A DNA stretch of 64,000 bases from an uncultured virus (IMG/VR IMGVR_UViG_3300020557_000008) (Duplodnaviria > Heunggongvirae > Uroviricota > Caudoviricetes): positions 1 to 64,000 of the IMG/VR virus record IMGVR_UViG_3300020557_000008; one strand, written 5' to 3'. The translations under genes were made by a program, and so were the position numbers. Of the stretch, positions 4,109 through 16,488 are shown in pieces. Numbering within the stretch: position 1 is the stretch's first letter; every line of letters begins with the position of its first letter. The notes beneath the pieces are model-generated. The model was not told the origin of the DNA. It worked only from the letters and a program-made list of their open reading frames with translations, and did not search any database.

Positions 4109-4309
4109 TGTTTTTTCTCCTTGTTGTTTTGGTTTTGCCTTACACTCTAAGTATAGCATCTGTTAGACACTTTGTCTACTCAGAATAGACATTGTGAAAT
4201 GTTTCTTTTGCCCGCCGCGGCCTCCGCCCGCGGGCAATTTTCTCCCACACCCTATTTTAGCGTGGGGGTGTTACACAGTTATTTTTTACTGTGTAACACC
4301 CCTTTGCTA

Positions 4310-4588
4310 CTAGGCGTTTGCCGTTGCGAGTTTGTCGTAACGGTGTACGGGCTTTATGTCTTCATTCACTGCTCGCCCGATGCTCTTAGCATTGAGTAGG
4401 TCAGTGAGAGTGCCAAGCATGACATCGTAGTAGACATACTCGCTACCGTTTGTGTACTCAATTACCAATTCACCGTAGGCGAGTTCGTAATTGTCCGACT
4501 CGCCATGTTGGGCGAGGTCAATCTCGCTCACCGTATAAGTGAGTTTCCTCACTGCCGTTGAGTTGAGTTGGGTTACTTCTATTTTCAT
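4310..4588 (-). CDS. KTSC-domain protein
   Basis: Pattern NSTAV...LVIEYTNGSEYVYYDV...LLNAKSIGRAVNEDIK typical of KTSC. Confidence 0.75.
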   Translation of the reverse strand: MKIEVTQLNSTAVRKLTYTVSEIDLAQHGESDNYELAYGELVIEYTNGSEYVYYDVMLGTLTDLLNAKSIGRAVNEDIKPVHRYDKLATANA

Positions 4589-4676
4589 TTTGTTTCTCCT
4601 TTGTTGTTTTGTTATTGCCTTACACTTCTACTATACCGTTGGTGGGGCAGATTTCCAACCTGCCCCACCAGATTTT

Positions 4677-4859
4677 TTAGCGTCCGAATTCTTCCTGCCA
4701 GAGTTCTTCTGCTTTGTCTAGGATTCTGTCGGCGTAGCGAGTGCTCATGTAGTCGTCGTCAATCCACGGAATGAATCCGTTTCCTGCGAGGTGCTCTATG
4801 GCTCTCTCTACGAATCGCTCTTGCTCTTCTTCGCCTAGTTCACTGAATTCGGTAATCAT
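4677..4859 (-). CDS. Small acidic hypothetical protein
   Basis: ORF with AGGAG RBS. Confidence 0.7.
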   Translation of the reverse strand: MITEFSELGEEEQERFVERAIEHLAGNGFIPWIDDDYMSTRYADRILDKAEELWQEEFGR

Positions 4860-4959
4860 TGGTTTCTCCTTTGTGTTGTTTTGCCTTACACTCTAATTGT
4901 ACAGCATGGGTGTACCATAATTGCGCATTTACGCCATTTGTCACACAATTGTCATAATC

Positions 4960-4980
4960 GGCTGTTAGGCTCACCTAACA
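4960..4980. promoter_or_regulatory. DtxR/IdeR-type iron box-like palindrome
   Basis: GGCTGTTAGGCTCACCTAA, 14/19 to TTAGGTTAGGCTAACCTAA. Confidence 0.6.
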
Positions 4981-5035
4981 AGTGATAGTGCGAATTTTCA
5001 CAAGCCTCCGACCGAAGGTCGGCTCCCGGTAGCCC

Positions 5036-5093
5036 AAAATATGGTGTTTCCTGATAATCGGATTTATTTAGTGCTGTGGCGTTTCCCTTGGGG
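5036..5093 (+). repeat. Dispersed ~57-bp element, copy 2
   Basis: AAAATATGGTGTTTC...GGATTTATT...GCGTTTCCCTTGGGG. Confidence 0.9.
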
Positions 5094-5148
5094 CTGAGCG
5101 AAGGGGGTGAGCGCCCGGCCTGGTCGCCCACCCCACATCATTTTGCTC

Positions 5149-5301
5149 TTAGAGCCACTCAGAGACGTCGCCGTCGGCGATTTCTGAGTAGTCCAATCCA
5201 TGAGCGTCGGCTACTGCTTGCCAGAAGTCTTCTTCTGTAAGCGGTGCTTGACCCTCTTGAATGTCTTCTGGGAGATGCTCCCACCACGTTGTTTTATTCA
5301 T
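5149..5301 (-). CDS. Small acidic protein (50 aa, MNKTTWWEHL...)
   Basis: Read manually; GGAAAGGA RBS; promoter. Confidence 0.7.
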   Translation of the reverse strand: MNKTTWWEHLPEDIQEGQAPLTEEDFWQAVADAHGLDYSEIADGDVSEWL

Positions 5302-5325
5302 TGTGTTTCCTTTCCTGTTGGGTAA

Positions 5326-5526
5326 TTACAGTGTATCACACTCTAGGAGTTTTAGCAACTCTTTCTGGGTCATTTCCTGAATCTGTGCCGCGTCTAGGTC
5401 TGCGGGTTTGATGACCTCAATGATTTGGCCCCTGCCTTGCGCGACTTCGCGGGCTGAGTAGAGGCTGAGGTACGGGCCGAGGTAGATATCTCCCGCGGCT
5501 GTGTTGAGTTTGATGATGTAGTTCAT
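5326..5526 (-). CDS. Hypothetical protein
   Basis: AAGGAG RBS before MNYII. Confidence 0.65.
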   Translation of the reverse strand: MNYIIKLNTAAGDIYLGPYLSLYSAREVAQGRGQIIEVIKPADLDAAQIQEMTQKELLKLLECDTL

Positions 5527-5589
5527 GTTTCTCCTTGGCCTCCGGGCGGCGGCTGGTGGGGCACTTCTCGTCCCCACCAGCCTGACCCG

Positions 5590-6054
5590 TTAGGCGTTGA
5601 TTAGTTCTTTCTGAGCCTTGACCCACTGCTCGTAGTTCCAGGCTTCGGTTGTCACGATTGCCTTGATTACCTTGAGGGGAATCTCGGCTTGGTTATTGCC
5701 GTACTTCACGGCGTTGTTTGCCCACTCAGTGATGCTGTAGGTGCTGTGGTTGGTGCTGAGTCCGACCATCTCATCTACCATCGCTGGCGTGATGTAGAGG
5801 TTGTGGCGTTCGCCATCTTCTCTCCACTCGTACATCATCGGGCTTTGGCTCATCGCCTCAACAGCCTTAGACCGACCGTAGTAGTCAGCCGCGTTGGCTT
5901 CGGTGATGCGCCCGTATCCGACTACGCCACCCCAGAAGATGAACGTCTGAATGTCGCCGCGTACGTTGTCATGACCGTACTCGTCTTTGACCCAGACTCC
6001 CTCGGGGTTCTTGGCGTAAGCCTTTGTATTTCCGATATCCCATGTCAATGGCAT
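5590..6054 (-). CDS. Hypothetical protein
   Basis: GGAAAGG RBS, leader hairpin, promoter. Confidence 0.75.
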   Translation of the reverse strand: MPLTWDIGNTKAYAKNPEGVWVKDEYGHDNVRGDIQTFIFWGGVVGYGRITEANAADYYGRSKAVEAMSQSPMMYEWREDGERHNLYITPAMVDEMVGLSTNHSTYSITEWANNAVKYGNNQAEIPLKVIKAIVTTEAWNYEQWVKAQKELINA

Positions 6055-6170
6055 TGTGTTTACCTTTCCTTTGTTTGTGTGGGGCGGTTGCCCCACTACT
6101 AATATTGTATCACCTATTCTGCTGTCTCACAACCTCGGCGGCAAGGTTTTGCCTCCGGGCGGTGCTCGCC

Positions 6171-6407
6171 CTACCTTTCGGTAGGGACGAGACCAGCGGG
6201 CTTCAGTGAGTTATTCAGCACGAGGCCGTAGAAGTGGCCTGTGACTGCATCCTTCACGAACGAGTGTCCCATTGTGCCGTTTGGCGGTGCGCCAAGGCCA
6301 CCTGAGCACTTCACCACGAGGGTTCCACGCTTTGGCTGGTGTGGGCGGGCATCAAAGATGTCCATCCCGACGGGTTCGTATCGGTATTGCCTGATTTTCT
6401 TGGTCAT
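6171..6407 (-). CDS. Hypothetical protein
   Basis: GGAGG RBS, promoter. Confidence 0.7.
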   Translation of the reverse strand: MTKKIRQYRYEPVGMDIFDARPHQPKRGTLVVKCSGGLGAPPNGTMGHSFVKDAVTGHFYGLVLNNSLKPAGLVPTER

Positions 6408-6479
6408 TGTGTTTTCCTCCATGATGTTAGTATAACAGATGTTTTGCGGTATTGCAACCTTCTTTTATTCCTTTATTGC

Positions 6480-6560
6480 CCCTGCCGGCTTTGCCGGAGG
6501 GAGGTCTTGGGCTGGTGGGGGAAGGAGGTAAGGAACCCCACCAGCCGCACTCGACCTATG
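6480..6560 (-). ncRNA. Candidate sRNA with anti-SD loop UUCCUUACCUCCUUC
   Basis: Promoter 6566-6594; no ORF or RBS downstream; perfect 11-bp stem 6510-6520/6536-6546. Confidence 0.65.
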
Positions 6561-6822
6561 CTTTCAGTGTATCACACTTTTCACGCTCTCGCAACTCTGC
6601 CAGCGTGATTTCACCCTTTATCAAGGATGCCCACTCTGATAGGTCTGCGACATTGAGACGCTCCGGCTCGGTGCCGCAAGGGTACTTGGCGGCTTGGTGC
6701 CAAGCCTTTGCGTCACATTCTCCGCAAACGGGCGTGCCGTCAAACGACCACCACGAATGCGTGAGGTAGTTAGCCTCAGCCTCTTCTTTAGTTCCCTGAA
6801 ACGGGACTGGAACATTTGCCAT
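6556..6822 (-). CDS. Hypothetical protein (CxxC)
   Basis: GAAAGG RBS. Confidence 0.7.
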   Translation of the reverse strand: MANVPVPFQGTKEEAEANYLTHSWWSFDGTPVCGECDAKAWHQAAKYPCGTEPERLNVADLSEWASLIKGEITLAELREREKCDTLKA

Positions 6823-6898
6823 TTTCTTACCTTTCTTGTGTTGGTGGTGCTTCTGCCCCACATCTACAGAATACCAGATGTGGGGCAGAATGACAACC

Positions 6899-7276
6899 TT
6901 ATTTTAGGATTTTTTCTAGTGTCTGTTGGTAGGTCTGCCATTGTGACGGGATACCGTTTTTTCCCATTGCCACAGCCTTGTCAAAGTCTGTTTCGCCAGA
7001 GCCCAGGATTTTTCGGACTGCCAGAATGCGGTCACGGACTGCTTCACGGTCTGCGCTATCACCGTCAAACGGGAATAGCGGGGACGGGTCAGTCAGATGA
7101 GCCATTGCCGCATCACAGATTTCGTCGTATGTGGCAAACGGATACAGCGAGGTTTCTTCACTGCTGAATAGATAGAACTCACAGCAGTATTCGCTGAACT
7201 GTTCGTATCGGTCTATTCTCTCTAATCTCTCTATTGCGCTTCCAGCATACGGGCTGGTACCTTGTGTGGTGGTCAT
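6899..7276 (-). CDS. Hypothetical protein, probably leaderless
   Basis: CATAAT 6 nt before ATG. Confidence 0.7.
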   Translation of the reverse strand: MTTTQGTSPYAGSAIERLERIDRYEQFSEYCCEFYLFSSEETSLYPFATYDEICDAAMAHLTDPSPLFPFDGDSADREAVRDRILAVRKILGSGETDFDKAVAMGKNGIPSQWQTYQQTLEKILK

Positions 7277-7405
7277 ACATACATTATGCCGTACTGTTAG
7301 ACAGATTACAACCTTATTCGTATTACAGAAGTATTACATTTGGCTTGTGCTTGTTCGCACTTTCACAAGCCCGGGGCCGGTGAAATCGATTTTTGCCCCT
7401 GCCCC

Positions 7406-7463
7406 GAAATATGGTGTTCCTTGATTATTGGATTTATTCTGCTTTGCGCCGTTCCCCTTGGGG
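7406..7463 (+). repeat. Dispersed ~57-bp element, copy 3
   Basis: GAAATATGGTGTTCCTTGATTATTGGATTTATT...GCCGTTCCCCTTGGGG. Confidence 0.9.
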
Positions 7464-7506
7464 CTGGGCTGGTGGGGGATTGCCCCACCAGCCTCGCTGA
7501 CCATTC

Positions 7507-7917
7507 TTAGAGGTACTTGGCTACTGCGCCGTAGGAAGAAGTACGGACATACTCTTCGTCGGACAGTTCTAGCACTCGGATTGCGTTCGCAAGTTCCTCT
7601 TGCGCTTCTTTATTGATGCGCTCGCTGAAATTGCTTTCCAAAGTGGGAAGTGAAATCTTGTGACTGAAAGTCACGGTGACTTCATTTACTTCTTCTTGGT
7701 TGTAGCGGTAAGGGTAAGCAAACGATACCTCTTTCGGCGTGAGTTTGCCAGACTTCACAAGCGCGGCGACAGACTTCTTGATGTCTGCGATTGCCTGCTT
7801 CTGAGCCTTCTCAGCCTTAGCGTGGTTGTTCGCTTCCTCAACCTTGCGGTTAAGTGCCTCGTTGAGCGCTTTGAGCAACTTGCCCTTGGCTACCCGTACA
7901 TTGATTGTCTTACTCAT
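7507..7917 (-). CDS. Hypothetical helical protein
   Basis: ORF, GGAAAGG RBS, promoter. Confidence 0.75.
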   Translation of the reverse strand: MSKTINVRVAKGKLLKALNEALNRKVEEANNHAKAEKAQKQAIADIKKSVAALVKSGKLTPKEVSFAYPYRYNQEEVNEVTVTFSHKISLPTLESNFSERINKEAQEELANAIRVLELSDEEYVRTSSYGAVAKYL

Positions 7918-7979
7918 TGTGTTTATTGCCTTTCCTGTTTTGTTGGTAGTGGGGAGGTTTCCCCACTACTATTATTGTA

Positions 7980-8378
7980 TCACAGGTTGCGCTCTTTGGC
8001 AACCCGTGACGCGATTTTCTTTCGCTGGTTGTTGGTACGCCAGCATGACGCTTGGTAGGCGATTTCGCTTACCTCGTCGCAGTAGATGCCGACAAACTCG
8101 GTCTCGATGACTGCCTGATTGCGCTTTGCGCCGCTGGTGACACGGCGAACGCAACGGACACGGTAGGTGTCGTTGAAGTCCAGCGTGATTTCCACCATGC
8201 GAGCACGCCCGACAGGGAGCCATACGCCGATTGTGTTTTGTTCAGCGTCACGGAGAGAACCCCAACGACCACCGGAGATGGCGAATAGGTTCATCATGCC
8301 GACTTGACGGATGATTTCCGCTGGGTCGCATTCACGACCTTCACGGTTGAGTATTGGGAGTGTGTATGTGTTTGTCAT
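7980..8378 (-). CDS. Hypothetical protein, leaderless
   Basis: TATAAT 6 nt before ATG at 8378. Confidence 0.7.
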   Translation of the reverse strand: MTNTYTLPILNREGRECDPAEIIRQVGMMNLFAISGGRWGSLRDAEQNTIGVWLPVGRARMVEITLDFNDTYRVRCVRRVTSGAKRNQAVIETEFVGIYCDEVSEIAYQASCWRTNNQRKKIASRVAKERNL

Positions 8379-8562
8379 ACTCTCATTATACGACCTGTTA
8401 GACAAATTAGCAACTCTTTTAGTGAACTTTCTGAGTGGCCGGCTGACCACGGAGAGTGACCTCGGCCCCTGTGGCTTATTTGCATGGCTTGCAAATAAGC
8501 AACTGTTGTGATTTGCCCCTGGGATGGGCGGGCAGGAAAGGATTGCCTGCCCACCCTCCGCG

Positions 8563-8781
8563 TCAGGAGTTTGCCTCCATTTCGCAGAATCGTTCCCATA
8601 GGTCTTCTTCGGTGTTGTAGCGGTCGCCCAAGTCATCGACGCCAATCGGTCTGCCCGTGGCACCGCACCATTCGTAGAAGCGGTCTACCTTTTTCTTCCA
8701 GTTAGCGTAAGTGCTAACAAGTTGAGGGTCGCCCATCCAGACAAATCCCCGGTACGGACGGCTCACTATTTTGCTATTCAT
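8563..8781 (-). CDS. Hypothetical protein
   Basis: GAAAGGA RBS, promoter. Confidence 0.7.
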   Translation of the reverse strand: MNSKIVSRPYRGFVWMGDPQLVSTYANWKKKVDRFYEWCGATGRPIGVDDLGDRYNTEEDLWERFCEMEANS

Positions 8782-8911
8782 TGTGTTTTCCTTTCTTGTG
8801 TTGTTACTTCTATTGTATCACACTTATTGTCAGTTTGCAACTCCGGTTGGAGATTCTGCCCCTGCGCTCGGGCGAGCCGTGGGCTGGTGGTTTCCCACCA
8901 GCCCGACAGAC

Positions 8912-9358
8912 TCAGCCGAAGATTGCTCCTACTGCGTCAGCGAGTGCGCCTTGCGCCTTGCCTTCGTCAATAGTCAGTTCGTCGTTGCCTGCCATTGAGA
9001 GTGCGCTGGCGATAGAACCGTCACGGCTCACCACGACCAGCAACTCAACACGCCGACGCTCAGGGTGCTGAGACGGGGGGGTGTTGTCACCGTCTGCGAC
9101 GGGCGAAGCCCAGCCAGCAGTAATAACGCCGTAGTAGTTTGCTGACTTGTCTGGGGTGACATTGTCCAGCAGGTCGTAGACATCTCCACCACACTGCTCC
9201 ATGTCCTTTATCCAGATTGGGTGTCCGTCATGGAACGCCACGGGTGCTACCCGAGCCTTTGACGGGGTATTGGTTGGGTTGGTGTTGAGACAGTCCACGC
9301 CGAGCAGTGCGACGATTTCCGCCACGCTCAGGTCTGTCGTATTCGTGAGTGTATTCAT
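8912..9358 (-). CDS. Hypothetical protein
   Basis: GGAAAGG RBS; TTGACA-17-TACAAT promoter. Confidence 0.75.
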   Translation of the reverse strand: MNTLTNTTDLSVAEIVALLGVDCLNTNPTNTPSKARVAPVAFHDGHPIWIKDMEQCGGDVYDLLDNVTPDKSANYYGVITAGWASPVADGDNTPPSQHPERRRVELLVVVSRDGSIASALSMAGNDELTIDEGKAQGALADAVGAIFG

Positions 9359-9452
9359 TGTGTTGCCTTTCCTTGTTTTGTTGTGGGCGGGATTGCCCAC
9401 TACTTAGATTGTACCACCGTGTTAGACATTTGTCAACTCGGCCAGCGAGAAT

Positions 9453-9678
9453 CCACTACGAAGCCACCGACAGCAAGCGTCCTTGCCCATTCCGTTGCGA
9501 CTCATCGGGTAGCAAGCCCGATTGCCGCCAATAGCAGGGACTAGCAGGGACGGCTACATCGCAGGAGAGGAACTGAGTGTGTGCCGCGGCACTTCTCTCG
9601 TACATCGCTGGTGATACAACGTGTGTCTGGTAATGCTATTCGTATGTTGTCAGTAACTTCGTAGTGGTTTCCCACTAC
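9453..9678 (-). ncRNA. Candidate structured ncRNA (~225 nt)
   Basis: Promoter 9683-9711; no RBS; 23-nt arms 9645-9667 and 9453-9475 pair with G-U wobbles on the minus strand. Confidence 0.7.
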
Positions 9679-9730
9679 TAATACTGTATCACATTCTAGT
9701 CGCTCTCGCAACCTTATTCTGAATTATTTT

Positions 9731-9786
9731 TGTGGGGTGGTGCCGACTACGACACTCTTACTCGGGTATCATTGCGAACCCCACAC
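9731..9786 (-). ncRNA. Candidate ~56-nt small RNA
   Basis: Promoter 9791-9819 (TTGGAA-17-TACAAT); 8-bp closing stem; internal hairpin GUGUCG-UAGU-CGGCAC. Confidence 0.5.
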
Positions 9787-9879
9787 TTAGATTGTACCAC
9801 ATCAGGGGCATGATTCCAACCTTGTGCAAAGATTCTTTTGCTGGTGCCGGGCCCGGCAACAAACTCTGCCCCTGCCCCG

Positions 9880-9938
9880 AAAAAATGGTGTTCCTTCATG
9901 TTCGGATTTATTCTGTTGTGCTGGCGTTTCCCTTGGGG
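9880..9938 (+). repeat. Dispersed ~57-bp element, copy 4
   Basis: AAAAAATGGTGTTCC...GGATTTATT...GCGTTTCCCTTGGGG. Confidence 0.9.
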
Positions 9939-10036
9939 CCGGGTTCTGCCCCTGCGCGCGCCGGTGCGCTCGCGGCCCGAACACCTGTTCGCCGAACGCG
10001 TGTTCGGGTGGGGCTTTCGCCCCACCCTTTACGCGG

Positions 10037-11080
10037 TCAGACTCCGAGGAGTTGGAGAACCTTTCGGTCACTCTGCTCGGTCTTGCCCATGAGCGCGTTC
10101 ATCATGTTGCGTTCTGCTCGGTTGTCCGAGTTTCCAACGACATGGTGGTTGTAAGTGTTGAACGCTTGAAGAACTCCAAGTGCTGAACCCTTCCACGGTG
10201 CGACGCGCACATCGTAGTTGTAAAGACTGACAATTTCTTCGCGCTTGTTCTCTGCGCGAGTCACTGCCGCTTTATTCTTATCGTCTGGCATGAGCGTCGG
10301 AATCGGCGCGAGTGCTTCAAGCACTTTCTGCCATTCTGCGTCGCTCACTTTGTGCTCGGACAGTTTCGTAATCTCTGCCATGATGTTGTCGGTCATCTTG
10401 TGAACGATGCCGAGCGCATCACGCGCTGACTGAATCCGCATTGCCGAGTTCTTGCTGTGGCGAGTCTTGAATTGACTCGTGTTCTCTTTCATCGCCATTG
10501 CGTGAGTGTTGTCGCACACTACGAAAGTGGAGACACTCTTGTAGGTGGTTGCCAACATTCCGTTGTGCGATGTCGTGGCGAGCAAGTGAGGACGGACGCT
10601 GAATCCTTCCAACACTTCTACCGACTCTGGCATTTCCAAAGAGACGAACGCGACTGCGCCGTTCTTCAAGATGCCTGCCGAGCCAAAGTTGATGTCATCA
10701 TCAACGATGTTCGCCAAGTTCTGAACGAGCCATTCTGGATACTGGTGCGAGCAGTAATCTTTGCCGAAGATTTCCATCAGGTCGTTAGTGTCTGAGCGCA
10801 AGATTGCCTGACGCTCTACCTCTACGAACTTGATTGGGTTTCCGTTATCGTCCACGCCTGTGGCATCGTCAAGCGTTGCTGGAACGCGAACGAACACTGG
10901 CGCGCTGACTGCCGACCACGCGAAGAGCCGACGCAAGATGTCATCGGTCGGAATTGCGCCTTCGTAGTGGTTGGGCTCGGTGCCTTGTAGGTCGGCGCGG
11001 TAGTGCCACGCGTTGCCACGCTCGGCGGTGAACCCGACGAGGATGTTGGAGTTGAGCCACTCCATGGTTTCTTTGGACAT
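10037..11080 (-). CDS. DUF932 (phage/plasmid-like TIGR03299) protein
   Basis: AWH N-terminus, AILRSDT, SAG.LKNG, TSHNG, VVCDNT, RHSKN motifs. Confidence 0.8.
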   Translation of the reverse strand: MSKETMEWLNSNILVGFTAERGNAWHYRADLQGTEPNHYEGAIPTDDILRRLFAWSAVSAPVFVRVPATLDDATGVDDNGNPIKFVEVERQAILRSDTNDLMEIFGKDYCSHQYPEWLVQNLANIVDDDINFGSAGILKNGAVAFVSLEMPESVEVLEGFSVRPHLLATTSHNGMLATTYKSVSTFVVCDNTHAMAMKENTSQFKTRHSKNSAMRIQSARDALGIVHKMTDNIMAEITKLSEHKVSDAEWQKVLEALAPIPTLMPDDKNKAAVTRAENKREEIVSLYNYDVRVAPWKGSALGVLQAFNTYNHHVVGNSDNRAERNMMNALMGKTEQSDRKVLQLLGV

Positions 11081-11247
11081 TGTGTATTACCTTTCTGTGT
11101 TTGGTTGTTTGGGTTGGTATTGCTATTACTAAGTGTATCACATTGCTGTTGCTCTCGCAACCTTATCGGAAACTATTTTTGTAGTTCCCGCTACTGATAC
11201 CACTGTATCGGCGAAACAATCAAAGCACAACCTATTTACAGAATTAT

Positions 11248-11268
11248 TTATCCACAGCCTGTGGATAA
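11248..11268. promoter_or_regulatory. Inverted pair of perfect DnaA boxes
   Basis: TTATCCACA-GCC-TGTGGATAA. Confidence 0.75.
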
Positions 11269-11327
11269 CTTTCGGCCCGGGCCCCCGTTGTTTATATACA
11301 AAGCGTTATGGGTTTTGCCCCTGCGCG

Positions 11328-11384
11328 AAAATATGGTGTTCCATGAATATTGGTTTTATTTGGGCAGCGGCCGTTCCCTTGGGG
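11328..11384 (+). repeat. Dispersed ~57-bp element, copy 5
   Basis: AAAATATGGTGTTCC...GGTTTTATT...GCCGTTCCCTTGGGG. Confidence 0.9.
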
Positions 11385-11391
11385 CCAGGGG

Positions 11392-11478
11392 GCCCGCCCA
11401 GGACAGAAAGGGAATAAGAACCTGGGCGGGCGCCACACCCGACGACTGGGACACAAGGAAGGAAAGACCCAGCCGCGT
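11392..11478 (-). ncRNA. Candidate two-hairpin antisense sRNA with anti-RBS loops
   Basis: Promoter TTGACA-16-CATACT (11484-11511); loops UCUUUCCUUCCUUGUGU and UUCUUAUUCCCUUUCUGU; no ORF. Confidence 0.7.
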
Positions 11479-11518
11479 TGTCAAGTATGACAGTTATTTT
11501 ATTTATGTCAAGCAGCCG

Positions 11519-12022
11519 CTACTCGCCACCCTCAAAGTTGAGGATTGCTTTGATGAGTTTCTCTGCTTCTTCTGGTGTGAACTCATCTGGCTGTTTGATA
11601 GCCGCGCGAGTCTGTTCGTGCTGAATGAAACTATCCACGTCCCACAGAATGTCTGCGGTACGGCGGAAGAGTTCTACGTCAACGCGACCCAACTTCTGGA
11701 CGTACGAGACGTGTTCAGCCGGAGTTCCACTGATTCCTATTTCGTGGACTTTAATCCAGCCCGTAGGAGTGAGGTATTCCAGCCGCGCGTATGACTGGTC
11801 GTCGTACGCGTTGCGGGCGATGTAGACACGCCGCGCGTTCGTATTCGTCTTGCGCATCACTTCTGTGAAGTGCCACGTTTGATGGTGGTTCCACAGACTG
11901 ATGAGTCTGTTGTCTTCTACGTACGTGACGCCACTATCTGTCGCATCGGACAGATAGACAACGTCTTCGTACTTGGTTCCGCGTTTTTCGGTGTATCCGT
12001 TTGTTTCGGTGTAGTTGTTCAT
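11519..12022 (-). CDS. Hypothetical protein
   Basis: ORF coupled (ATGA) to the upstream gene. Confidence 0.7.
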   Translation of the reverse strand: MNNYTETNGYTEKRGTKYEDVVYLSDATDSGVTYVEDNRLISLWNHHQTWHFTEVMRKTNTNARRVYIARNAYDDQSYARLEYLTPTGWIKVHEIGISGTPAEHVSYVQKLGRVDVELFRRTADILWDVDSFIQHEQTRAAIKQPDEFTPEEAEKLIKAILNFEGGE

Positions 12023-12489
12023 GACCATACCCTCTTTACGCACGTAAGGACATTGAGTGTGACTCCGTCAAACAGCCAGCGCCACTCAGCACCGTCTTCG
12101 CCGCGCCAGTCAACAACACTGTCTTTCTCAACGTATTTTGCGATTGCTGAGAAGAAGTGGTCTTCTGAACCCGTCTTGTTGTCGTAGTAAATAGCGAACA
12201 GGTCACCATCGTCGTTGTACTCGGCTTCAAATCCAAGAGCGTCAATGATTTCCTGAAAGGTCTTGTATTTATTTGGGTAATCCGCTGGCATCCACGCGAA
12301 CCACTTGGCAGGATGATGGTCCATGCCTTCTGGTCGTGGGCTGCGAGCATCAACTCCGTCGCCGCCGTACGAGCCGCCAGACTTCAAGTCGTCGCGGTCG
12401 TTGAGAGCGCACATTGCCTCGTAACACTTGACAAAGTGCTCTTTCTTGATTGTTATGTCATTGTTGGTTGTTTGAACAAAGTATCCCAT
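12019..12489 (-). CDS. Conserved-looking phage hypothetical protein (...WRGEDGAEWRW)
   Basis: ORF, RBS, leader hairpin, promoter. Confidence 0.75.
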   Translation of the reverse strand: MGYFVQTTNNDITIKKEHFVKCYEAMCALNDRDDLKSGGSYGGDGVDARSPRPEGMDHHPAKWFAWMPADYPNKYKTFQEIIDALGFEAEYNDDGDLFAIYYDNKTGSEDHFFSAIAKYVEKDSVVDWRGEDGAEWRWLFDGVTLNVLTCVKRVWS

Positions 12490-12543
12490 TGTTTTCTCTT
12501 TCTATTGAGTTGGTGAGGCGGTTGCCTCATTACTTACATTGTA

Positions 12544-12714
12544 TCACGTTGTTGGTTGGTTTGCAACTTCTGCTTCAAGGTGTAGGCGAATATCCAGCAG
12601 CAGGTCTGTCATCTCCGAGGAGGAGACAAGGTCTCTGCCGGAGATTTCCGACAGAGCCTCATCCACGAGTTTTCTTGCTGCTTCGTATTTGTCGCCAGTC
12701 ATAGGCTCAGACAT
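12544..12714 (-). CDS. Small hypothetical protein (MSEPMTGDKY...)
   Basis: Read manually; TAATG overlap with the upstream stop. Confidence 0.65.
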   Translation of the reverse strand: MSEPMTGDKYEAARKLVDEALSEISGRDLVSSSEMTDLLLDIRLHLEAEVANQPTT

Positions 12715-12932
12715 TAGTGCTTCCCGATGTCTAGAAAACCTGTTTCGTTGCCTTCTGGGTCAGACATTACGAGAGCGTCGGTCCCATCAGTGAACTCCAA
12801 AATGCATGTTGGTGTTTTTGAATAAAGCCAACCTGTTTCTTTGTTCTCTTCGTCCGTCAGTTCACGAACGTTCTTGATGGTCTTGCCGACAAGCGACTCA
12901 GCGTAATGAGTTTTGTTTATTACTGTGCTCAT
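12714..12932 (-). CDS. Hypothetical protein (...MSDPEGNETGFL)
   Basis: ATGA-coupled ORF. Confidence 0.7.
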   Translation of the reverse strand: MSTVINKTHYAESLVGKTIKNVRELTDEENKETGWLYSKTPTCILEFTDGTDALVMSDPEGNETGFLDIGKH

Positions 12933-13162
12933 ACCTTGATGCCTGTCACGAGTTCTTCTGGACGCGTATCAAGCGCGTAGCAGATACGGAAAAACGTATC
13001 CAGCGACGGAGAGAAGTGTCCATTCTCGATTCTGTTGATGGTCTTGCGGTCAATGCCTGCGCTCTTAGCCAAATCGCCCTGAGAGAGACCGATGGTCTCG
13101 CGCAGGCTCTTTACTCGGCTTGCAACTTCAAGCAGTGCCTTTTTGTTCATTGCGTTGTTCAT
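12929..13162 (-). CDS. XRE-family helix-turn-helix regulator
   Basis: LRETIGLSQGDLAKSAGIDRKTINRIENGHFSPSL. Confidence 0.9.
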   Translation of the reverse strand: MNNAMNKKALLEVASRVKSLRETIGLSQGDLAKSAGIDRKTINRIENGHFSPSLDTFFRICYALDTRPEELVTGIKV

Positions 13163-13300
13163 TGTTTGTCTTTCTTTCTGTGGGTGTTGTGCCACACTTA
13201 CATTGTACCATGACCGAGTCAGGCTTGCAACCTTCCCGAAAAAATATGTTCGCGGATATTGTTGTTGTCTGACCCGGCCAAGGATTTTGCCTCTGGCCCG

Positions 13301-13355
13301 GAAATATGGTGTTCCAGAGAAATCGGATTTATTTTCGTAGCGCCGTTCCCTTGGG
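13301..13355 (+). repeat. Dispersed ~57-bp element, copy 6
   Basis: GAAATATGGTGTTCC...GGATTTATT...GCCGTTCCCTTGGG. Confidence 0.9.
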
Positions 13356-13384
13356 CTGGTTGTACAGCCGCAAGGGACAGGTGC

Positions 13385-13555
13385 CTAGCCGCGCTTCTTG
13401 AGGTAAGCCTCAATAGCGGACTTGATGACTGCGGACTTGCTGACCTTGTCCTCTTTGGAAACGGTCGCGATTTTGCGAGCCATGTCCTCGGAAAGACGGA
13501 AGGCGATAAGTGGGTACTTAGCCTTTGGGGTAGTTGCTGTCTTGGTCTTGCTCAT
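13385..13555 (-). CDS. Ribbon-helix-helix (CopG/Arc-like) DNA-binding protein
   Basis: IAFRLSEDMARKI...SKSAVIKSAIEAYL. Confidence 0.8.
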   Translation of the reverse strand: MSKTKTATTPKAKYPLIAFRLSEDMARKIATVSKEDKVSKSAVIKSAIEAYLKKRG

Positions 13556-13660
13556 TGCTTTCTTCTTTCTATGTGTGTTGGTATTACATCTCAATTATAC
13601 ATTGTGTCTAACGCATCTACAACCTCTGTGCGCGAGTTCACTCGCGCTTTGGGGTTAAGT

Positions 13661-13905
13661 GACGGTTATATGACGGTTAAGGGACGGTTAGATAGAAATG
13701 GTACAGGCTCAAACCCTTACTGGGTAAGGGTTTCCGGGCTTTTGTACCATATTTGCGGGTGACAATCTGTCACCTTGGGGGTGACAACCTGTCACCCCGG
13801 GGGTGACAACCTGTCACCCCCTAGTGACAATCTGTCACTACTTGTGGCGGCCGTCACATACTACATGTAGTGGGGTGACAACCTGTCACCCCCTACATCT
13901 AGAGA
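13661..13905. repeat. Iteron-like array, candidate replication origin
   Basis: GACGGTTA x3 at 11-bp period (13661, 13672, 13683); palindrome AAACCCTTAC-TGG-GTAAGGGTTT (13711-13733); GTGACAA(T/C)CTGTCAC x5 (13759, 13781, 13803, 13824, 13875). Confidence 0.75.
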
Positions 13906-13907
13906 GG

Positions 13908-14588
13908 CTAGACGCCAAGAAGTTCGGCTACTGCCTCGCTTCTCTTCTCTCTGTAGACATCCGAATACTCGGTTCGCCAGTCGCTCTGCTGGTCCAAGGC
14001 TTCGTCTATGTCATCTTTGTCAAAGAGTTTCGCAAGTTTCTTTGGCATCTGTGGCTCTTCGCCCTCTTCGTATGTCATCTCGCCGTTACGGAATACGGAA
14101 CAGCCGACAAAGGCGTCTCCTTCTTCCGTGTAAACAAGTGAGAACACGAGCGTTGGGAACTGCTTGGAAATCTGTCTGATGAGACCTTCGGCAGGCGACC
14201 ACGCACTCTCAAAGTATGCGCCGATGTATTTGGCATCATCGTTTACTTTGTCGTTCTTGGTGACAAACGAGGTCCAGTCAAATTGGCAAGCACCCCACTT
14301 GGTTCCCCAATTGGCGTTACACCACGAGTACCAGTCTCTGTGACCGTACTTCTTGATGTTCTCTTGCTGTTTGTCTTCTAGTTGCTTCTGCTCTTGCTCG
14401 TCACTGAACCAGCCAGATGTCGTGTTGGTGAGTTCTTCTGGGCAAGGGAAGAGGTGGTTGAGACCGGTAGTTTCTTTGGTCTCGCCAGTCTCTTCGTCTT
14501 TGTGGGTTGTCTTGGTGGCGTCAACGAGCCTTCGCAGTTCGCTGACCTCACCGTGTACTTCTAATTCGTTATAGCACCAGTTTGGCAT
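13908..14588 (-). CDS. DUF1281/YubB-like ferredoxin-fold protein
   Basis: MPNWCYNEL...WYSWCNANWGTKW...FESAWSP. Confidence 0.8.
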   Translation of the reverse strand: MPNWCYNELEVHGEVSELRRLVDATKTTHKDEETGETKETTGLNHLFPCPEELTNTTSGWFSDEQEQKQLEDKQQENIKKYGHRDWYSWCNANWGTKWGACQFDWTSFVTKNDKVNDDAKYIGAYFESAWSPAEGLIRQISKQFPTLVFSLVYTEEGDAFVGCSVFRNGEMTYEEGEEPQMPKKLAKLFDKDDIDEALDQQSDWRTEYSDVYREKRSEAVAELLGV

Positions 14589-14645
14589 TTCTTATTCCCT
14601 TTCATTGAGTTGGTTATTGCTTACACTTACATTGTAGCACAATAA

Positions 14646-14876
14646 TCAGCCATCTCCAACCTCTCCACGACAGTATTCCCGAGGAGAAGGCATTTCTTCG
14701 ACAGTTCCGTTCATTTGTGCGTTTGTATATTGCTCTGAGTAGGCACCGCGGTCTGCGTCGGACATCACATTGTCCCACGCATTCCAGTCGGCGTCATCCC
14801 AGTTTTGTGTCTCGATGCGTACCGGCGGGGCAAGAAACCACGTCCCACTTTCAGCATCACAGTAGACAATGCTCAT
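14646..14876 (-). CDS. Hypothetical protein
   Basis: GAAAGGA RBS. Confidence 0.7.
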   Translation of the reverse strand: MSIVYCDAESGTWFLAPPVRIETQNWDDADWNAWDNVMSDADRGAYSEQYTNAQMNGTVEEMPSPREYCRGEVGDG

Positions 14877-14961
14877 TGTTTGTTCCTTTCGTTTATTTTG
14901 ATGTCAATCGCTATTACTGCCGCCACTAAAGCAAACAACATGGCCACCACGATGATGTCAA

Positions 14962-15234
14962 TCATTCGTGACCCCACGATGCTTCGCCGTGTTTTGTTTT
15001 GTTGTAGCACTCAGTGTGGTAGTTGCCGTAGTTGTAGATGTTTCCTTTTACGGACTCAACACGAACTTCGGTGTCTAGGTAAATCTGTTTTCCACACTCG
15101 TCGCACTCAAAGCCTGAGCACTCAGCGCAACCCCAGCCGTCATCGACTGGAATACGGTTCACGAACAGGCCGTTGCCGCTACCAAACGCCGTTGAGCGTT
15201 GGCAGTAGACACATGGGTCAATAGTCGTTATCAC
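14962..15234 (-). CDS. Cys-rich (CxxC x3) hypothetical protein
   Basis: GTGA-coupled ORF. Confidence 0.7.
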   Translation of the reverse strand: MITTIDPCVYCQRSTAFGSGNGLFVNRIPVDDGWGCAECSGFECDECGKQIYLDTEVRVESVKGNIYNYGNYHTECYNKTKHGEASWGHE

Positions 15235-15482: not shown

Positions 15483-15519
15483 ACTTAGAGTGTATCACAC
15501 CATTTGCCGTTTGACAACC

Positions 15520-16426: not shown

Positions 16427-16488
16427 TGTGTTTGCCTTTCTATTTGGTTGGTACTTACATTGTAGCACAATCTAGGTCGTTTTCCAAC

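What the first reader, a model, noticed from the sequence alone, without database searches (positions are those of the whole stretch)
9453..9711. ~225-nt structured ncRNA with a 23-bp closing stem and a competing 5' hairpin
Seen: a full early promoter and leader hairpin (GUAGUGG-GAAA-CCACUAC) with no RBS-led ORF behind it. The 5' arm CCACUACGAAGUUACUGACAACA pairs with the 3' arm UGCUGUCGGUGGCUUCGUAGUGG (11 perfect pairs, then 3 G-U and 1 mismatch). G-U-compatible differences point to RNA-level selection. CCACUAC can pair with either the 5' or the 3' GUAGUGG, which could make a switch. Internal helices: AAUAGCA/UGCUAUU and AUCGGG/CCCGAU. GUACGAGAG (9595-9603) matches the core of the 23S sarcin-ricin loop, possibly by chance. 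Function unknown (RNA-polymerase or defence-protein decoy are options).
Basis: partly seen in the sequence, partly recalled or inferred. Interest (0 to 1): 0.78.

Follow-up and report, generated by a model that had tools for sequence, protein, structure and literature searches.

The report
Structured small RNA of lake phages
A group of uncultured freshwater phages of actinobacteria carries a gene for a roughly 230-base folded RNA that makes no protein, keeps its shape through evolution and turns up in lake RNA samples, but its job is still unknown.

Summary
On the minus strand, an early phage promoter (-35 9711-9706, -10 9688-9683) drives a ~230-nt RNA (about 9678-9445). Its first and last bases pair in a 27-bp helix (P1).

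Ten homologous loci were found (9 distinct RNA sequences, about 7 lineages). They come only from one clade of WhiB-encoding freshwater actinophages. Across them, a 60-pair model is 94% paired. It comprises P1, P1b, P2, P3, P4 and P5, arranged as two three-way junctions. 28 pairs show changes on both sides, against 3-7 in the slid controls.

G-U pairs outnumber A-C pairs 55 to 9, so the gene-sense RNA is the folded strand. The 49-codon ORF is not conserved. No Rfam family matches.

Contigs of 157-187 nt from four RNA libraries (three studies) lie wholly inside the element.

The "competing 5' hairpin switch" is missing in 3 of 10 homologues and has a predicted probability of about 0 in the full-length RNA. 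The sarcin-ricin match is confined to one sub-clade.

Best reading: a stand-alone, stable, early, trans-acting RNA whose invariant loops are recognition surfaces. Its target is unknown. Two features are unexplained: the always-palindromic P3 apex, and an invariant block that mirrors the phage's own -10 box.

The parts
10037..11080 (-). Upstream gene, DUF932 protein (347 aa). It is the conserved left neighbour of the RNA gene.
   Evidence: Pfam DUF932, E 5e-36. It lies upstream of the RNA in all 7 homologous loci examined for synteny.
9833..9965 (-). One copy of a 9-copy repeat of about 100 nt, lying between the DUF932 gene and the RNA gene. Role unknown.
   Evidence: Families D4, D5 and D7. 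RNAalifold found no consensus fold on the minus strand.
9791..9819 (-). Upstream orphan promoter (TTGGAA-17-TACAAT with a TG). Its short hairpin leader (about 9783-9712) has no gene, so this promoter sits in tandem with the RNA's own promoter.
   Evidence: Promoter scan. The same arrangement is seen in L010, L006 and L007 in the alignment.
9683..9711 (-). The RNA's own promoter: -35 TTGCGA (9711-9706), 17-nt spacer, extended -10 TGTGATACAGT (-10 hexamer 9688-9683).
   Evidence: Sequence. It is a member of promoter repeat families D1, D3 and D12. Both boxes are invariant or near-invariant in the homologues.
9445..9678 (-). The non-coding RNA. The 5' end is inferred from the promoter at 9678-9675. 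The 3' limit is taken as the last paired base, 9445. The true ends have not been measured.
   Evidence: Covariance model R1 scores 294 bits on this strand. The 60-pair model is 94.1% paired across homologues. RNA-library contigs cover 9463-9649.
9648..9675 (-). P1, 5' strand (GUGGGAA-A-CCACUACGAAGUUACUGACA).
   Evidence: 27 pairs with 9472-9445. 97.8% of cells are paired and 9 pairs changed on both sides. Pair probability of the inner 20 pairs is 0.91-0.99.
9445..9472 (-). P1, 3' strand (UGUCGGUGGCUUCGUAGUGG-A-UUCUCGC).
   Evidence: As for the 5' strand.
9661..9678 (-). Local 5' hairpin GUAGUGG-GAAA-CCACUAC, which competes with P1.
   Evidence: -11.5 kcal/mol on its own. Present in 7 of 10 homologues. 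Probability is about 0 in the full-length RNA.
9641..9646 (-). P1b, 5' strand. It pairs with 9494-9488.
   Evidence: Three of 6 pairs changed on both sides. The duplex is found in the same register in 10 of 10 homologues: 6 bp in 4 of them, and weaker (3+2 bp) in the window's clade.
9634..9640 (-). P2, 5' strand (AAUAGCA). It pairs with UGCUAUU at 9536-9530.
   Evidence: The duplex is found in the same register in 10 of 10 homologues with different letters: UAGCA/UGCUA, AUACA/UGUAA, AGUCA/UGACU, AAGCA/UGCUU.
9607..9620 (-). Invariant block GUUGUAUCACCAGC. Its complement on the plus strand (GTGATACA, 9611-9618) is the phage's own extended -10 word.
   Evidence: Invariant except for one base in two homologues. 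GTGATACA occurs 16 times in the window (1.59 expected): 14 in minus-strand promoters and 2 inverted, one of which is here.
9581..9592 (-). P3 hairpin, whose apex is a perfect palindrome (GUGCCGCGGCAC).
   Evidence: A hairpin is present in all homologues with unrelated stem letters. The apex is palindromic in 10 of 10: CCGCGG in 4, CCATGG in 2, CCTAGG in 4.
9560..9572 (-). Pyrimidine-rich stretch UUCCUCUCCUGCG, resembling an anti-Shine-Dalgarno sequence. Other lineages have UCCCUUCUGCG or CUCCCUCCUGCG.
   Evidence: Alignment. It pairs with RBS regions at -6 to -10 kcal/mol, but shows no lineage-specific match.
9535..9541 (-). Conserved GUCCCUG, immediately 5' of and overlapping the 3' strand of P2.
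   Evidence: Invariant except for one base in L005.
9497..9528 (-). P4 stem-loop: P4a is 9528-9524 with 9501-9497, P4b is 9522-9517 with 9509-9504. The 7-nt loop CUUGCUA lies at 9516-9510.
   Evidence: 11 pairs, 99.1% paired, 7 changed on both sides. The loop letters UUGCUA are invariant.
9473..9486 (-). P5 hairpin GCAAG-GACG-CUUGC, stacked directly on P1.
   Evidence: 5 pairs, 100% paired, 4 changed on both sides. The loop GACG is invariant.
9408..9436 (-). Next promoter (TTGACA-17-TACAAT), which serves the downstream gene.
   Evidence: 11 of 12 consensus matches with TG.
8912..9358 (-). Downstream 148-aa gene of unknown function. It is a variable neighbour.
   Evidence: Present after the RNA in the window, L010, L007, L166, L167 and L172. 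Absent there in L006 and L005. No Pfam family.

Best explanation
This is a gene for a stand-alone, non-coding, highly structured RNA of about 230 nt. It belongs to one clade of uncultured freshwater actinobacterial siphophages.

Shown:
- It sits behind its own early promoter of the sigma-A type, which itself follows an orphan promoter in tandem.
- The gene-sense strand folds into a conserved architecture. A 27-bp terminal helix (P1) uses the very first transcribed bases and the last ones. It is extended by the 6-bp P1b.
- There are two three-way junctions: P1/P1b/P5 and P1b/P2/P4.
- A variable hairpin, P3, has a palindromic apex.
- Several sequence blocks never change: GUUGUAUCACCAGC, a pyrimidine-rich ...CUGCG stretch, GUCCCUG, the loop CUUGCUA and the loop GACG.
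- RNA-library contigs match the core.

Inferred:
- Locking both ends into one long helix shields the RNA from nucleases that attack from either end, so it accumulates. A helix of more than 20 bp is also a plausible RNase III substrate, which could trim the RNA out of read-through transcripts. No terminator follows the element.
- The invariant unpaired blocks and loops are recognition surfaces through which the RNA acts in trans on a host or phage partner early in infection. It would do so either as a protein-binding decoy or scaffold, or by base pairing.

How likely: about 0.85 that it is a discrete functional RNA, and about 0.5 that it acts in trans rather than in cis. The partner is not identified.
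For: Structure. MFE is -97.9 kcal/mol with z = -4.38. RNAalifold on 10 homologues gives 56 pairs, 22 of them with compensatory changes. My 60-pair model is 94.1% paired, with 28 pairs changed on both sides. 0 of 500 shuffles reach this. Slid controls give 31-46% paired and 3-7 such pairs. A model-based realignment gives the same result.

Strand. There are 55 G-U/U-G cells against 9 A-C/C-A cells. The covariance model scores the sense strand at 215-310 bits and the antisense strand at 21-37 bits.

Not coding. The 49-codon ORF is limited to the window's sub-clade. A 1-nt indel shifts its frame after 16 codons, and it is absent from L006, L007, L168 and L005. Gaps in the alignment are 1 or 2 nt long.

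Its own module. The promoter boxes are conserved. The upstream DUF932 gene is always the left neighbour, while the downstream gene varies. There is one copy per genome in 5 of 5 records.

Expression. In 4 of 4 RNA libraries laid (3 studies), one contig each of 157-187 nt lies entirely inside the element: 9463-9649, 9474-9638, 9486-9642 and 9474-9632. Three of the four are at least 99% identical to the window. The fourth is a variant. Its four changes at assessable paired positions all keep the pair: 9522/9504 goes from A-U to G-C, 9524 gives U-G and 9525 gives A-U (mapped onto the model).

Stability of P1. The mean pair probability of its inner 20 pairs is 0.91-0.99 in all 10 homologues.

No known family. 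0 of 4227 Rfam models match at gathering score over the whole window. Only two chance-level hits appear at E up to 10, and both lie outside the RNA body.
Against: - No measurement shows the strand, the ends or the level of the RNA. Contigs cannot show these, and RNA libraries can contain DNA (notes).
- No terminator-like site follows the element (0 found in 8800-10200). The RNA may therefore be only the 5' part of a longer transcript, or a processing product.
- Nothing identifies a partner. No RNA-binding protein family was seen among the 87 window ORFs scanned.
- The family is narrow: 10 loci, 9 distinct sequences and about 7 lineages, all in one phage clade. Many of the counted cells are therefore inherited rather than independent events.
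- P2 and P3 are misaligned in the automatic alignments, and their support rests partly on per-sequence duplex predictions.
- RNase III cleavage and protection of the ends are inferences from general knowledge, not results.
Confidence: 0.6

Rival explanations
1. Anti-Shine-Dalgarno regulator. The pyrimidine-rich loop (UUCCUCUCCU, UCCCUUCU or CUCCCUCCU, depending on lineage) and the GUCCCUG words pair with purine-rich ribosome-binding sites of host or phage mRNAs and damp their translation. This is how the C-rich-loop small RNAs of Gram-positive bacteria work (6C, RsaE; recalled). It is a specific form of the trans-acting reading.
For: A pyrimidine-rich stretch is kept at the same place in all 10 homologues although its letters differ. 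L168 and L005 carry CCUCCU, which is the anti-SD core of 16S rRNA (recalled). The phage's early genes have strongly purine-rich RBS regions, such as GAAAGG and AAGGAGAA. Predicted loop-RBS duplexes average -6 to -10 kcal/mol. Earlier notes of this scan on other freshwater actinophages describe anti-SD loops. One of them concerns a stretch that shares 11 of 74 short words with this RNA. Those are unchecked notes and serve as a lead only.
Against: - No lineage-specific matching was found. The window's loop pairs best with every lineage's RBS set, and L005's own loop is not the best on L005's RBS set.
- The dominant RBS word GAAAGG is the same in all lineages while the loops differ, and none of the loops contains its exact complement.
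- Any C/U-rich 15-mer would pair with purine-rich RBSs.
- This stretch is less conserved than the other blocks, and its predicted unpaired probability is only 0.37-0.83.
- The idea leaves the invariant block, the P4 and P5 loops and the size of the RNA unexplained.
Confidence: 0.15
2. Cis-acting element of a longer early transcript. In this reading it is a processing or stability module (for example an RNase III site), or a leader that governs the genes downstream, and not an RNA with a function of its own.
For: No terminator-like site lies between the element and the next gene, so read-through is likely. P1 is a helix of 27 bp plus 6 bp, which is long enough for RNase III (general knowledge). 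In L005, L006 and L007 the -35 box (TTGCTT) of the next promoter lies inside the 3' strand of P1 (alignment).
Against: - The downstream gene differs between homologues and always has its own promoter.
- A processing site does not need about 170 nt of conserved interior with invariant loops and two junctions.
- The four RNA-library contigs consist of the interior only.
Confidence: 0.15
3. Conformational switch. CCACUAC alternates between the 5' and the 3' GUAGUGG, giving two functional states.
For: The 5' hairpin is stable on its own (-11.5 kcal/mol) in 7 of 10 homologues. It would form first during transcription.
Against: It is absent in L006, L007 and L005, which have a different, weaker local hairpin. 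Its probability in the full-length RNA is about 0.000 in all 10 homologues, against 0.91-0.99 for the inner 20 pairs of P1. The GUAGUGGG start is shared with the leaders of the phage's other early promoters (families D6 and D15). It therefore comes with the promoter module.
Confidence: 0.04
4. RNA-polymerase decoy of the 6S or Ms1 type, or another device aimed at the promoter. The invariant block is the mirror image of the phage's own extended -10 box.
For: GUUGUAUCACCAGC is the most conserved block, and its complement GTGATACA is the phage's -10 word. That word occurs 16 times in the window against 1.59 expected. 14 copies are in minus-strand promoters, and only 2 are inverted, one of them here.
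Against: - The fold is branched with two three-way junctions. It is not a rod with a central bubble.
- No Rfam model matches.
- The RNA carries the template-strand version of the -10 box, whereas sigma reads the non-template strand (general knowledge).
- As a plus-strand promoter the hexamer would be TACAAC, with C in place of the essential last T in 10 of 10 homologues, and no conserved -35 box lies upstream.
Confidence: 0.05
5. A DNA-level feature or a small protein gene. Candidates are an inverted repeat serving as a site for a DNA-binding protein, an antisense promoter, or the 49-codon ORF.
For: The arms are an inverted repeat. The P3 apex is a perfect DNA palindrome. An ORF of 49 codons exists in the window.
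Against: - The asymmetry of 55 G-U to 9 A-C cells points to one single-stranded sense.
- The helices covary while their letters change.
- The ORF is not conserved and has no RBS.
- RNA-library contigs exist.
Confidence: 0.03

Closest known systems
Abundant viral small RNAs with paired termini: adenovirus VA RNA I, EBV EBERs (recalled, not tested here)
   Same: They are virus-encoded and have their own promoter. They are 160-230 nt long, with the 5' and 3' ends paired in a terminal stem that closes a branched core. They are non-coding and accumulate to high levels. They act in trans by binding host proteins.
   Different: They belong to eukaryotic viruses and are made by RNA polymerase III. There is no sequence or model similarity. 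Their targets (PKR, La, L22) have no known counterpart here. The comparison is by analogy only.
phi29 packaging RNA (pRNA; recalled)
   Same: It is a phage RNA of 120-174 nt made from an early promoter. Its 5' and 3' ends form a long helix. Its structure is conserved while its sequence drifts, and it assembles with itself through loop-loop pairing. The palindromic P3 apex here could allow self-pairing.
   Different: No Rfam hit was found. pRNA belongs to protein-primed podoviruses, whereas this phage has siphovirus tail genes such as a tape measure and Dit. pRNA pairs two different loops with each other, not one palindrome with itself. No link to packaging genes is seen here.
6S RNA and mycobacterial Ms1 (recalled)
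   Same: Similar size, paired ends, non-coding, and a possible link to promoters through the mirrored -10 word.
   Different: The fold here is branched, not a rod with a central bubble. No Rfam match was found. None was found in the 151 Actinomycetota genomes sampled.
Retron msr-msd RNA (recalled)
   Same: Flanking inverted repeats (a1/a2) close a structured RNA of 150-250 nt.
   Different: No reverse transcriptase (RVT_1) was found in any of 5 phage records, although those records are only 43-79% complete. No Rfam match was found.
C-rich-loop small RNAs of Gram-positive bacteria (6C of Actinobacteria, RsaE; recalled) and the anti-SD hairpins noted earlier in this scan
   Same: There is a pyrimidine-rich exposed stretch that could cover ribosome-binding sites. 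The host phylum lacks Hfq (recalled).
   Different: This RNA is much larger and more complex. The pyrimidine stretch is only one of five conserved blocks. No loop-RBS co-variation is seen, and no Rfam match was found.

Membership tests
Any Rfam 15 family (4227 models) | A match to the family's covariance model at its gathering score. | tested here: not met
   0 matches over the whole window. At E up to 10 on 9350-9800 there are only two hits: HIV-1_SL4 (E 2.1, in the promoter) and PreQ1 (E 4.1, in the next leader). Both are far below gathering score.
6S RNA | A rod-like fold consisting of a closing stem, a large central bubble and a terminal stem. | tested here: not met
   The conserved fold has two three-way junctions and five further helices.
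6S RNA | Binds the RNA polymerase holoenzyme and templates short product RNAs. | not testable with these tools
   This needs biochemistry.
Retron msr-msd | A reverse-transcriptase gene next to the RNA. | tested here: not met
   PF00078 was found in 0 of 5 phage records, while the control genomes gave hits. The records are incomplete (43-79%).
Retron msr-msd | Inverted repeats a1/a2 that close the RNA. | tested here: met
   P1 has 27 pairs. This is a resemblance only.
phi29-type pRNA | The host phage is a protein-primed podovirus, and the RNA matches the pRNA model. | tested here: not met
   Siphovirus tail genes are present: PhageMin_Tail, SPP1_Dit and Sipho_Gp37. No Rfam hit was found.
phi29-type pRNA | Pairing between loops of different molecules that builds an oligomer. 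| tested here: inconclusive
   The P3 apex is palindromic in 10 of 10 homologues, which would allow self-pairing. The RNAcofold test was uninformative.
Y RNA / YrlA with Ro60 (Rsr) | A tRNA-like domain and an rsr (TROVE) gene in the genome. | tested here: not met
   No Rfam hit was found. No TROVE family was seen among the 87 window ORFs scanned. ARAGORN finds no tRNA-like gene.
C-rich-loop / anti-SD small RNA (6C type) | Exposed C-rich loops complementary to the ribosome-binding sites of target mRNAs. | tested here: inconclusive
   A pyrimidine-rich stretch is conserved and can pair with RBS regions. There is no lineage-specific match, and no exact complement of the dominant GAAAGG word.
Small protein gene | An open frame and a start codon conserved among homologues. 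| tested here: not met
   The ORF is limited to one sub-clade. Its frame is broken by a 1-nt indel, and it is absent in 4 of 10 homologues.
Riboswitch or cis-acting leader | A fixed association with a downstream gene class, plus an expression platform (a terminator or an RBS-sequestering helix). | tested here: not met
   The downstream gene varies and has its own promoter. No terminator-like site was found.

The most novel reading that the evidence does not exclude
The RNA assembles with itself and works as a decoy or scaffold.

The apex of P3 is a perfect palindrome in every homologue although its letters change (CCGCGG, CCAUGG, CCUAGG). The central four bases cannot pair within a single hairpin. 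Their retained self-complementarity therefore points to pairing between two copies, as at the HIV-1 dimerisation site and in the RNA-only assemblies recently seen for OLE, ROOL and GOLLD.

Such a dimer or oligomer would display the invariant block (the mirror of the phage's own extended -10 box), the CUUGCUA loop and the GACG loop. These would capture a host factor or the phage's own read-through transcripts early in infection.
Probability: 0.12. Interest if true: 0.8.

Novelty: new variant of a known kind. Interest (0 to 1): 0.6.

Why it matters
Phage small RNAs with a proven structure and a sign of expression are rare, and almost none are known from the phages of the abundant freshwater actinobacteria, whose hosts are hard to grow.

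This one is large and complex for a bacterial small RNA. It has six helices, two junctions and five invariant blocks. That level of complexity usually goes with specific binding to a protein or with catalysis, not with simple antisense action.

It has its own tandem early promoters, and its contigs appear in RNA libraries from three studies. The phage therefore seems to invest in it at the very start of infection, which is when take-over of the host and counter-defence are decided. Finding its partner could reveal a new RNA-based way for a phage to handle its host.

The result also gives a ready covariance model (R1) and a clear set of mutants to test.

Its reach is limited by the narrow distribution (one phage clade) and by the lack of a cultured host.

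Tried and rejected
- **Phage database.** blastn of 9300-9900 against cultured-phage records gave no match.
- **Plain 14-mer scan.** Scanning viral contigs with GTTGTATCACCAGC returned 119 stretches. All were chance matches except the known relatives.
- **Looser pattern scans of viral contigs.** One search used a wrong spacing, which was my error, and its 4 hits were chance. One search found 8 stretches: 5 known and 3 unrelated. One search found 18 stretches: 5 known and 13 unrelated. The covariance model found no true new member among these.
- **Distant relatives.** More distant phages carrying the DUF932 gene or the 148-aa gene (L008, L009, L011, L014-L040) have no such RNA.
- **Host copy.** The pattern scan of 185,579 species genomes gave 0 hits. 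The model found nothing in 2 Actinomycetota MAGs or in 151 sampled Actinomycetota genomes. This means "not found in those searched", not "absent".
- **Host identification.** The endolysin matched other genomes only through its peptidoglycan-binding domain, so it says nothing about the host.
- **Self-dimer test.** RNAcofold of two copies predicts only generic domain-swapped dimers (ddG -10 to -18 kcal/mol), which any folded RNA would give. This is uninformative.
- **Loop-RBS co-variation.** None was seen.
- **The 9-copy repeat.** RNAalifold found no consensus fold on the minus strand.
- **Coverage of the flanks.** In the four RNA runs laid, no contig covers 9100-9462 or 9650-10100, nor most of P1. 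Contigs from three studies stop within 9632-9649 on one side and 9463-9486 on the other, with no loose ends. That is at most a weak hint of a discrete or trimmed species. It cannot decide between RNase III trimming and the usual loss of coverage at transcript ends.
- **Literature.** Four searches found no description of this RNA and no function for DUF932. I read passages of PMC10690425, which reports 8,495 novel candidate structured RNAs predicted from IMG/VR (29-151 nt; about 10,000 in all with RNA-virus data). Those supplements that could be searched hold neither the invariant word nor the contig numbers. The alignment files were too large to be searched, so a sub-hairpin of this RNA may be listed there.
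- **Sarcin-ricin idea.** Rejected. GUACGAGAG is exact in 5 of 10 homologues, is GUGCGAGAG in L010, and is absent in 4.
Full report
**What the window is.** The window is the first 64 kb of a 76.6-kb IMG/VR virus record that is linear and about 57% complete. Nearly all its genes lie on the minus strand. Pfam finds a WhiB-type regulator, a ParB-N protein, an SNF2 helicase, a tape-measure protein, Dit and a VanY-type endolysin. The nearest cultured phages are Arthrobacter phages, at about 30-35% amino-acid identity over the helicase. It is therefore an uncultured siphophage of actinobacteria. The RNA libraries that hold the element are labelled freshwater and riverine.

The first 18 kb is an early region built from repeated modules. 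At least 19 distinct sites in families D1-D3 carry a promoter of the form TTGCGA-17-TGTGATACAnT. Several of these are followed by a 5' leader hairpin that starts with GUAGUGGG (families D6 and D15) and by a purine-rich ribosome-binding site.

**Checking the observation.**
- The promoter is TTGCGA (9711-9706), a 17-nt spacer, then TACAGT (9688-9683).
- The hairpin GUAGUGG-GAAA-CCACUAC lies at 9678-9661.
- No ribosome-binding site and no conserved ORF follows.
- The two arms pair as stated: 11 Watson-Crick pairs, 3 G-U pairs and one mismatch.
- The stretch folds at -97.9 kcal/mol with z = -4.38, and 0 of 200 shuffles fold as well.

**Homologues.** A cultured-phage database gave nothing. Relatives of the neighbouring DUF932 protein in IMG/VR led to four further phage contigs that carry a homologous stretch: L010, L006, L007 and L005. 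A pattern built from conserved blocks found the same five viral contigs. In the metagenome collection it found ten stretches. After removing duplicates there are 10 loci, with 9 distinct sequences within the RNA itself. They fall into about seven lineages: window/L166, L010, L172, L167/L170, L006/L007, L168 and L005. Identity to the window falls to about 69% for L007, and L005 is the most divergent.

Looser patterns and a covariance model found no further members:
- none in viral contigs;
- none in more distant phages with the same neighbouring genes;
- none in the pattern scan of 185,579 species genomes;
- none in the 151 sampled Actinomycetota genomes.

Each of 5 phage records holds exactly one copy.

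**Structure.** RNAalifold predicts 56 pairs, 22 of them with compensatory changes. I refined this to 60 pairs in six helices, given here in window coordinates on the minus strand.

| Helix | 5' strand | 3' strand | Notes |
|---|---|---|---|
| P1 | 9675-9648 | 9472-9445 | 27 pairs, one 1x1 internal loop |
| P1b | 9646-9641 | 9494-9488 | |
| P2 | 9640-9634 | 9536-9530 | |
| P3 | within 9592-9581 | | hairpin |
| P4 | within 9528-9497 | | 7-nt loop CUUGCUA |
| P5 | within 9486-9473 | | loop GACG |

On the ten-sequence alignment, 94.1% of cells are paired and 28 of 60 pairs show a change on both sides. 0 of 500 shuffles reach these values. Sliding the 3' partners by 1-3 columns gives 31-46% paired and 3-7 such pairs. 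The realignment guided by the model gives the same figures.

P2 and P1b are partly misaligned by MAFFT. Taken sequence by sequence, both duplexes appear in the same register in 10 of 10 homologues. P2 uses different letters in different lineages: UAGCA/UGCUA, AUACA/UGUAA, AGUCA/UGACU and AAGCA/UGCUU.

The architecture is two three-way junctions, P1/P1b/P5 and P1b/P2/P4. P2 closes an interior of about 100 nt. That interior holds P3, a possible small hairpin around a pyrimidine-rich loop, and several invariant stretches whose pairing, if any, I could not establish.

**Which strand, and is it coding?** G-U and U-G cells number 55 against 9 A-C and C-A cells. In P1, P4 and P5 alone the count is 44 against 3. 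The model scores the gene-sense strand at 215-310 bits and the opposite strand at 21-37 bits. The folded molecule therefore has the sense of the promoter.

The 49-codon ORF (MYERSAAA...) is found only in the window's sub-clade, where a 1-nt indel changes the frame after 16 codons. It is absent from L006, L007, L168 and L005. The alignment gaps are 1 or 2 nt long.

**Is it made?** One search for sequencing runs listed seven RNA libraries from three studies, each holding a small share of a 1-kb stretch around the element. I laid four of them, covering all three studies. Each gave one contig of 157-187 nt that lies entirely within the element: 9463-9649 (word depth 26), 9474-9638, 9486-9642 and 9474-9632. 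Three are at least 99% identical to the window.

The fourth is a variant with ten differences. At the four positions that fall in helices and can be judged, pairing is kept: 9522/9504 goes from A-U to G-C, 9524 gives U-G and 9525 gives A-U.

There are limits to this evidence. Contigs show neither strand, nor ends, nor level, and RNA libraries can hold DNA. That contigs of three studies stop in the same short spans is at most a weak hint of a discrete species.

**The switch and the sarcin-ricin match.** The 5' hairpin is present in 7 of 10 homologues. L006, L007 and L005 lack it and have another, weaker local hairpin inside the 5' strand of P1. In the full-length RNA the predicted probability of the 5' hairpin is about 0.000 in all ten, while the inner 20 pairs of P1 have 0.91-0.99. 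The GUAGUGGG start is shared with leaders of other early promoters, so it comes with the promoter module. The hairpin is at most a transient folding state.

GUACGAGAG is exact in 5 of 10 homologues and absent in 4. The flanking bases do not reproduce the bulged-G motif (recalled). I read it as chance.

**Context.** The DUF932 gene, one copy of a 9-copy repeat and an orphan promoter with a short hairpin leader always precede the RNA's own promoter. The RNA therefore lies behind two promoters in tandem. The gene after it varies. It is the 148-aa gene in six loci, a 58-aa gene in L006 and something else in L005, and each has its own promoter. No terminator-like site follows. No reverse transcriptase is found in any of five records. 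No RNA-binding protein family appears among the 87 ORFs scanned.

**How it most likely works.**

*Shown:*
- an own promoter;
- a conserved branched fold of the sense strand;
- no coding capacity;
- presence in RNA libraries;
- five blocks that do not change while the helices around them do: GUUGUAUCACCAGC, the ...CUGCG pyrimidine stretch, GUCCCUG, the loop CUUGCUA and the loop GACG.

*Inferred:*
- P1 pairs the first transcribed bases with the last ones. Both ends are therefore buried in a helix of 27 bp plus 6 bp. This should protect the RNA against end-dependent nucleases and let it accumulate.
- A helix of this length is also a natural RNase III substrate, which could free the RNA from read-through transcripts.
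- The invariant unpaired blocks are then surfaces for a partner. Two junctions, invariant loops and conserved G-U pairs within P1 are more typical of a protein-binding or otherwise sophisticated RNA than of a simple antisense regulator.

I therefore favour a trans-acting decoy or scaffold, while base pairing remains open.

I put about 0.85 on "a discrete functional RNA", about 0.5 on "acts in trans", and 0.6 on the statement as a whole.

**Two unexplained features.**
- *The P3 apex.* It is a perfect palindrome in 10 of 10 homologues, with three different centres: CCGCGG in 4, CCATGG in 2 and CCTAGG in 4. The central four bases cannot pair within one hairpin. Their retained self-complementarity suggests pairing between two molecules, or a palindromic DNA site. 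A cofold test could not tell.
- *The invariant block.* It is the mirror of the phage's own extended -10 word. GTGATACA occurs 16 times in the window against 1.59 expected. 14 copies are in minus-strand promoters and only 2 are inverted, one of them here. As a plus-strand promoter it would read TACAAC, lacking the essential final T in all ten homologues. An antisense promoter is therefore unlikely. Pairing with -10 sequences carried by read-through transcripts, or chance, remain possible.

**The anti-SD idea.** Earlier notes of this scan on other freshwater actinophages describe hairpins with anti-Shine-Dalgarno loops. One of those notes concerns a stretch that shares 11 of 74 short words with this RNA. 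These are unchecked notes, used here only as a lead.

I tested the idea. The pyrimidine-rich stretch is conserved in kind, and the early genes have very purine-rich ribosome-binding sites. However, the loops differ between lineages while the dominant GAAAGG word does not. None of the loops holds its exact complement. Own-lineage pairings are no better than cross-lineage ones. The idea stays a rival at about 0.15.

**Comparison with what is known.** No Rfam family matches.
- By way of working, the nearest analogues are abundant viral RNAs with paired termini (VA RNA, EBERs) and phi29 pRNA.
- By shape of the ends, the nearest is the retron RNA.
- By the promoter link, it is 6S or Ms1.
- By the pyrimidine loop, it is the 6C-type small RNAs.

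It is a member of none of these. The defining features that could be tested were not met: model match, rod-like fold, reverse transcriptase and phage type.

Four literature searches found no description of it. A catalogue of candidate structured RNAs from IMG/VR lists only motifs of 29-151 nt. Its largest supplementary files could not be searched.

**Verdict.** This is a real, new family of structured phage RNA with good comparative support and a sign of expression. Its function is unknown and its distribution is narrow. Interest 0.6.

Noticed in passing
window 1-18000, for example 646-703, 2477-2515, 6097-6135, 7967-8005, 8805-8843, 12531-12567, 15482-15520: The early region is built from repeated modules. 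At least 19 distinct sites carry a promoter of the form TTGCGA-17-TGTGATACAnT. Several are followed by a 5' leader hairpin (GUAGUGGGGCAACCGCCCCAC type) and then a gene, so many small early genes have their own promoter.
   Followed up: partly
window 1373-1438, 5034-5099, 7404-7469, 9878-9943, 11326-11391, 13299-13347, 17772-17820, 20216-20264, 21137-21172: A repeat of about 100 nt occurs nine times between early genes. Its minus-strand core is AAUAAAUCC..GGAACACCAUAUUUU, flanked by GCCCC and GGGGC. RNAalifold found no consensus fold, and it is not a canonical terminator. Its role is unknown.
   Followed up: partly
window 13756-13895: Four copies of a 22-24-bp unit containing the inverted repeat GTGACA-N4-TGTCAC (three in tandem at 22-bp spacing) lie next to small HTH_3 and ribbon-helix-helix genes (12929-13195 and 13385-13594). 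This looks like an operator array of a regulatory switch.
   Followed up: no
window, 24 nt upstream of early start codons, for example 9382-9359, 8805-8782, 7941-7918, 11104-11081: The early genes share an unusual extended ribosome-binding region, (A/G)GAAAGG(N)AA(A)CACA-AUG or AAGGAGAA. GAAAGG is complementary to the CCUUUC at the very 3' end of 16S rRNA (recalled).
   Followed up: partly
window 9712-9819: An orphan promoter (TTGGAA-17-TACAAT) has a roughly 70-nt leader that folds as GUGUGGGGU...ACCACCCCACA and has no gene. It sits directly upstream of the RNA's own promoter. The same tandem arrangement is seen in L010, L006 and L007.
   Followed up: partly
L005, L006 and L007, at the 3' strand of P1 (alignment A2, columns about 245-275): In these three relatives the -35 box (TTGCTT) of the next promoter lies inside the 3' strand of the RNA's closing helix. 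In the window and L010 a separate promoter lies about 25 nt further on.
   Followed up: no
window 3630-3637 (+): This is the only other inverted copy of the -10 word GTGATACA in the window. I did not examine what lies around it.
   Followed up: no
window 21875-22486 and 32500-33855; 54668-61581: There are eight genes with 2OG-Fe(II) oxygenase domains. Six of them lie in a block with lower G+C (42-44%), together with a DUF6065 gene and a weak glycosyltransferase match. This is a striking expansion of paralogues for a phage.
   Followed up: no
window 9367-9404 (-): The leader of the next gene gives a weak PreQ1-riboswitch hit (13.7 bits against a gathering score of 39, E 4.1). It is most likely chance, caused by a small hairpin followed by an A-rich tail and the RBS.
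   Followed up: no
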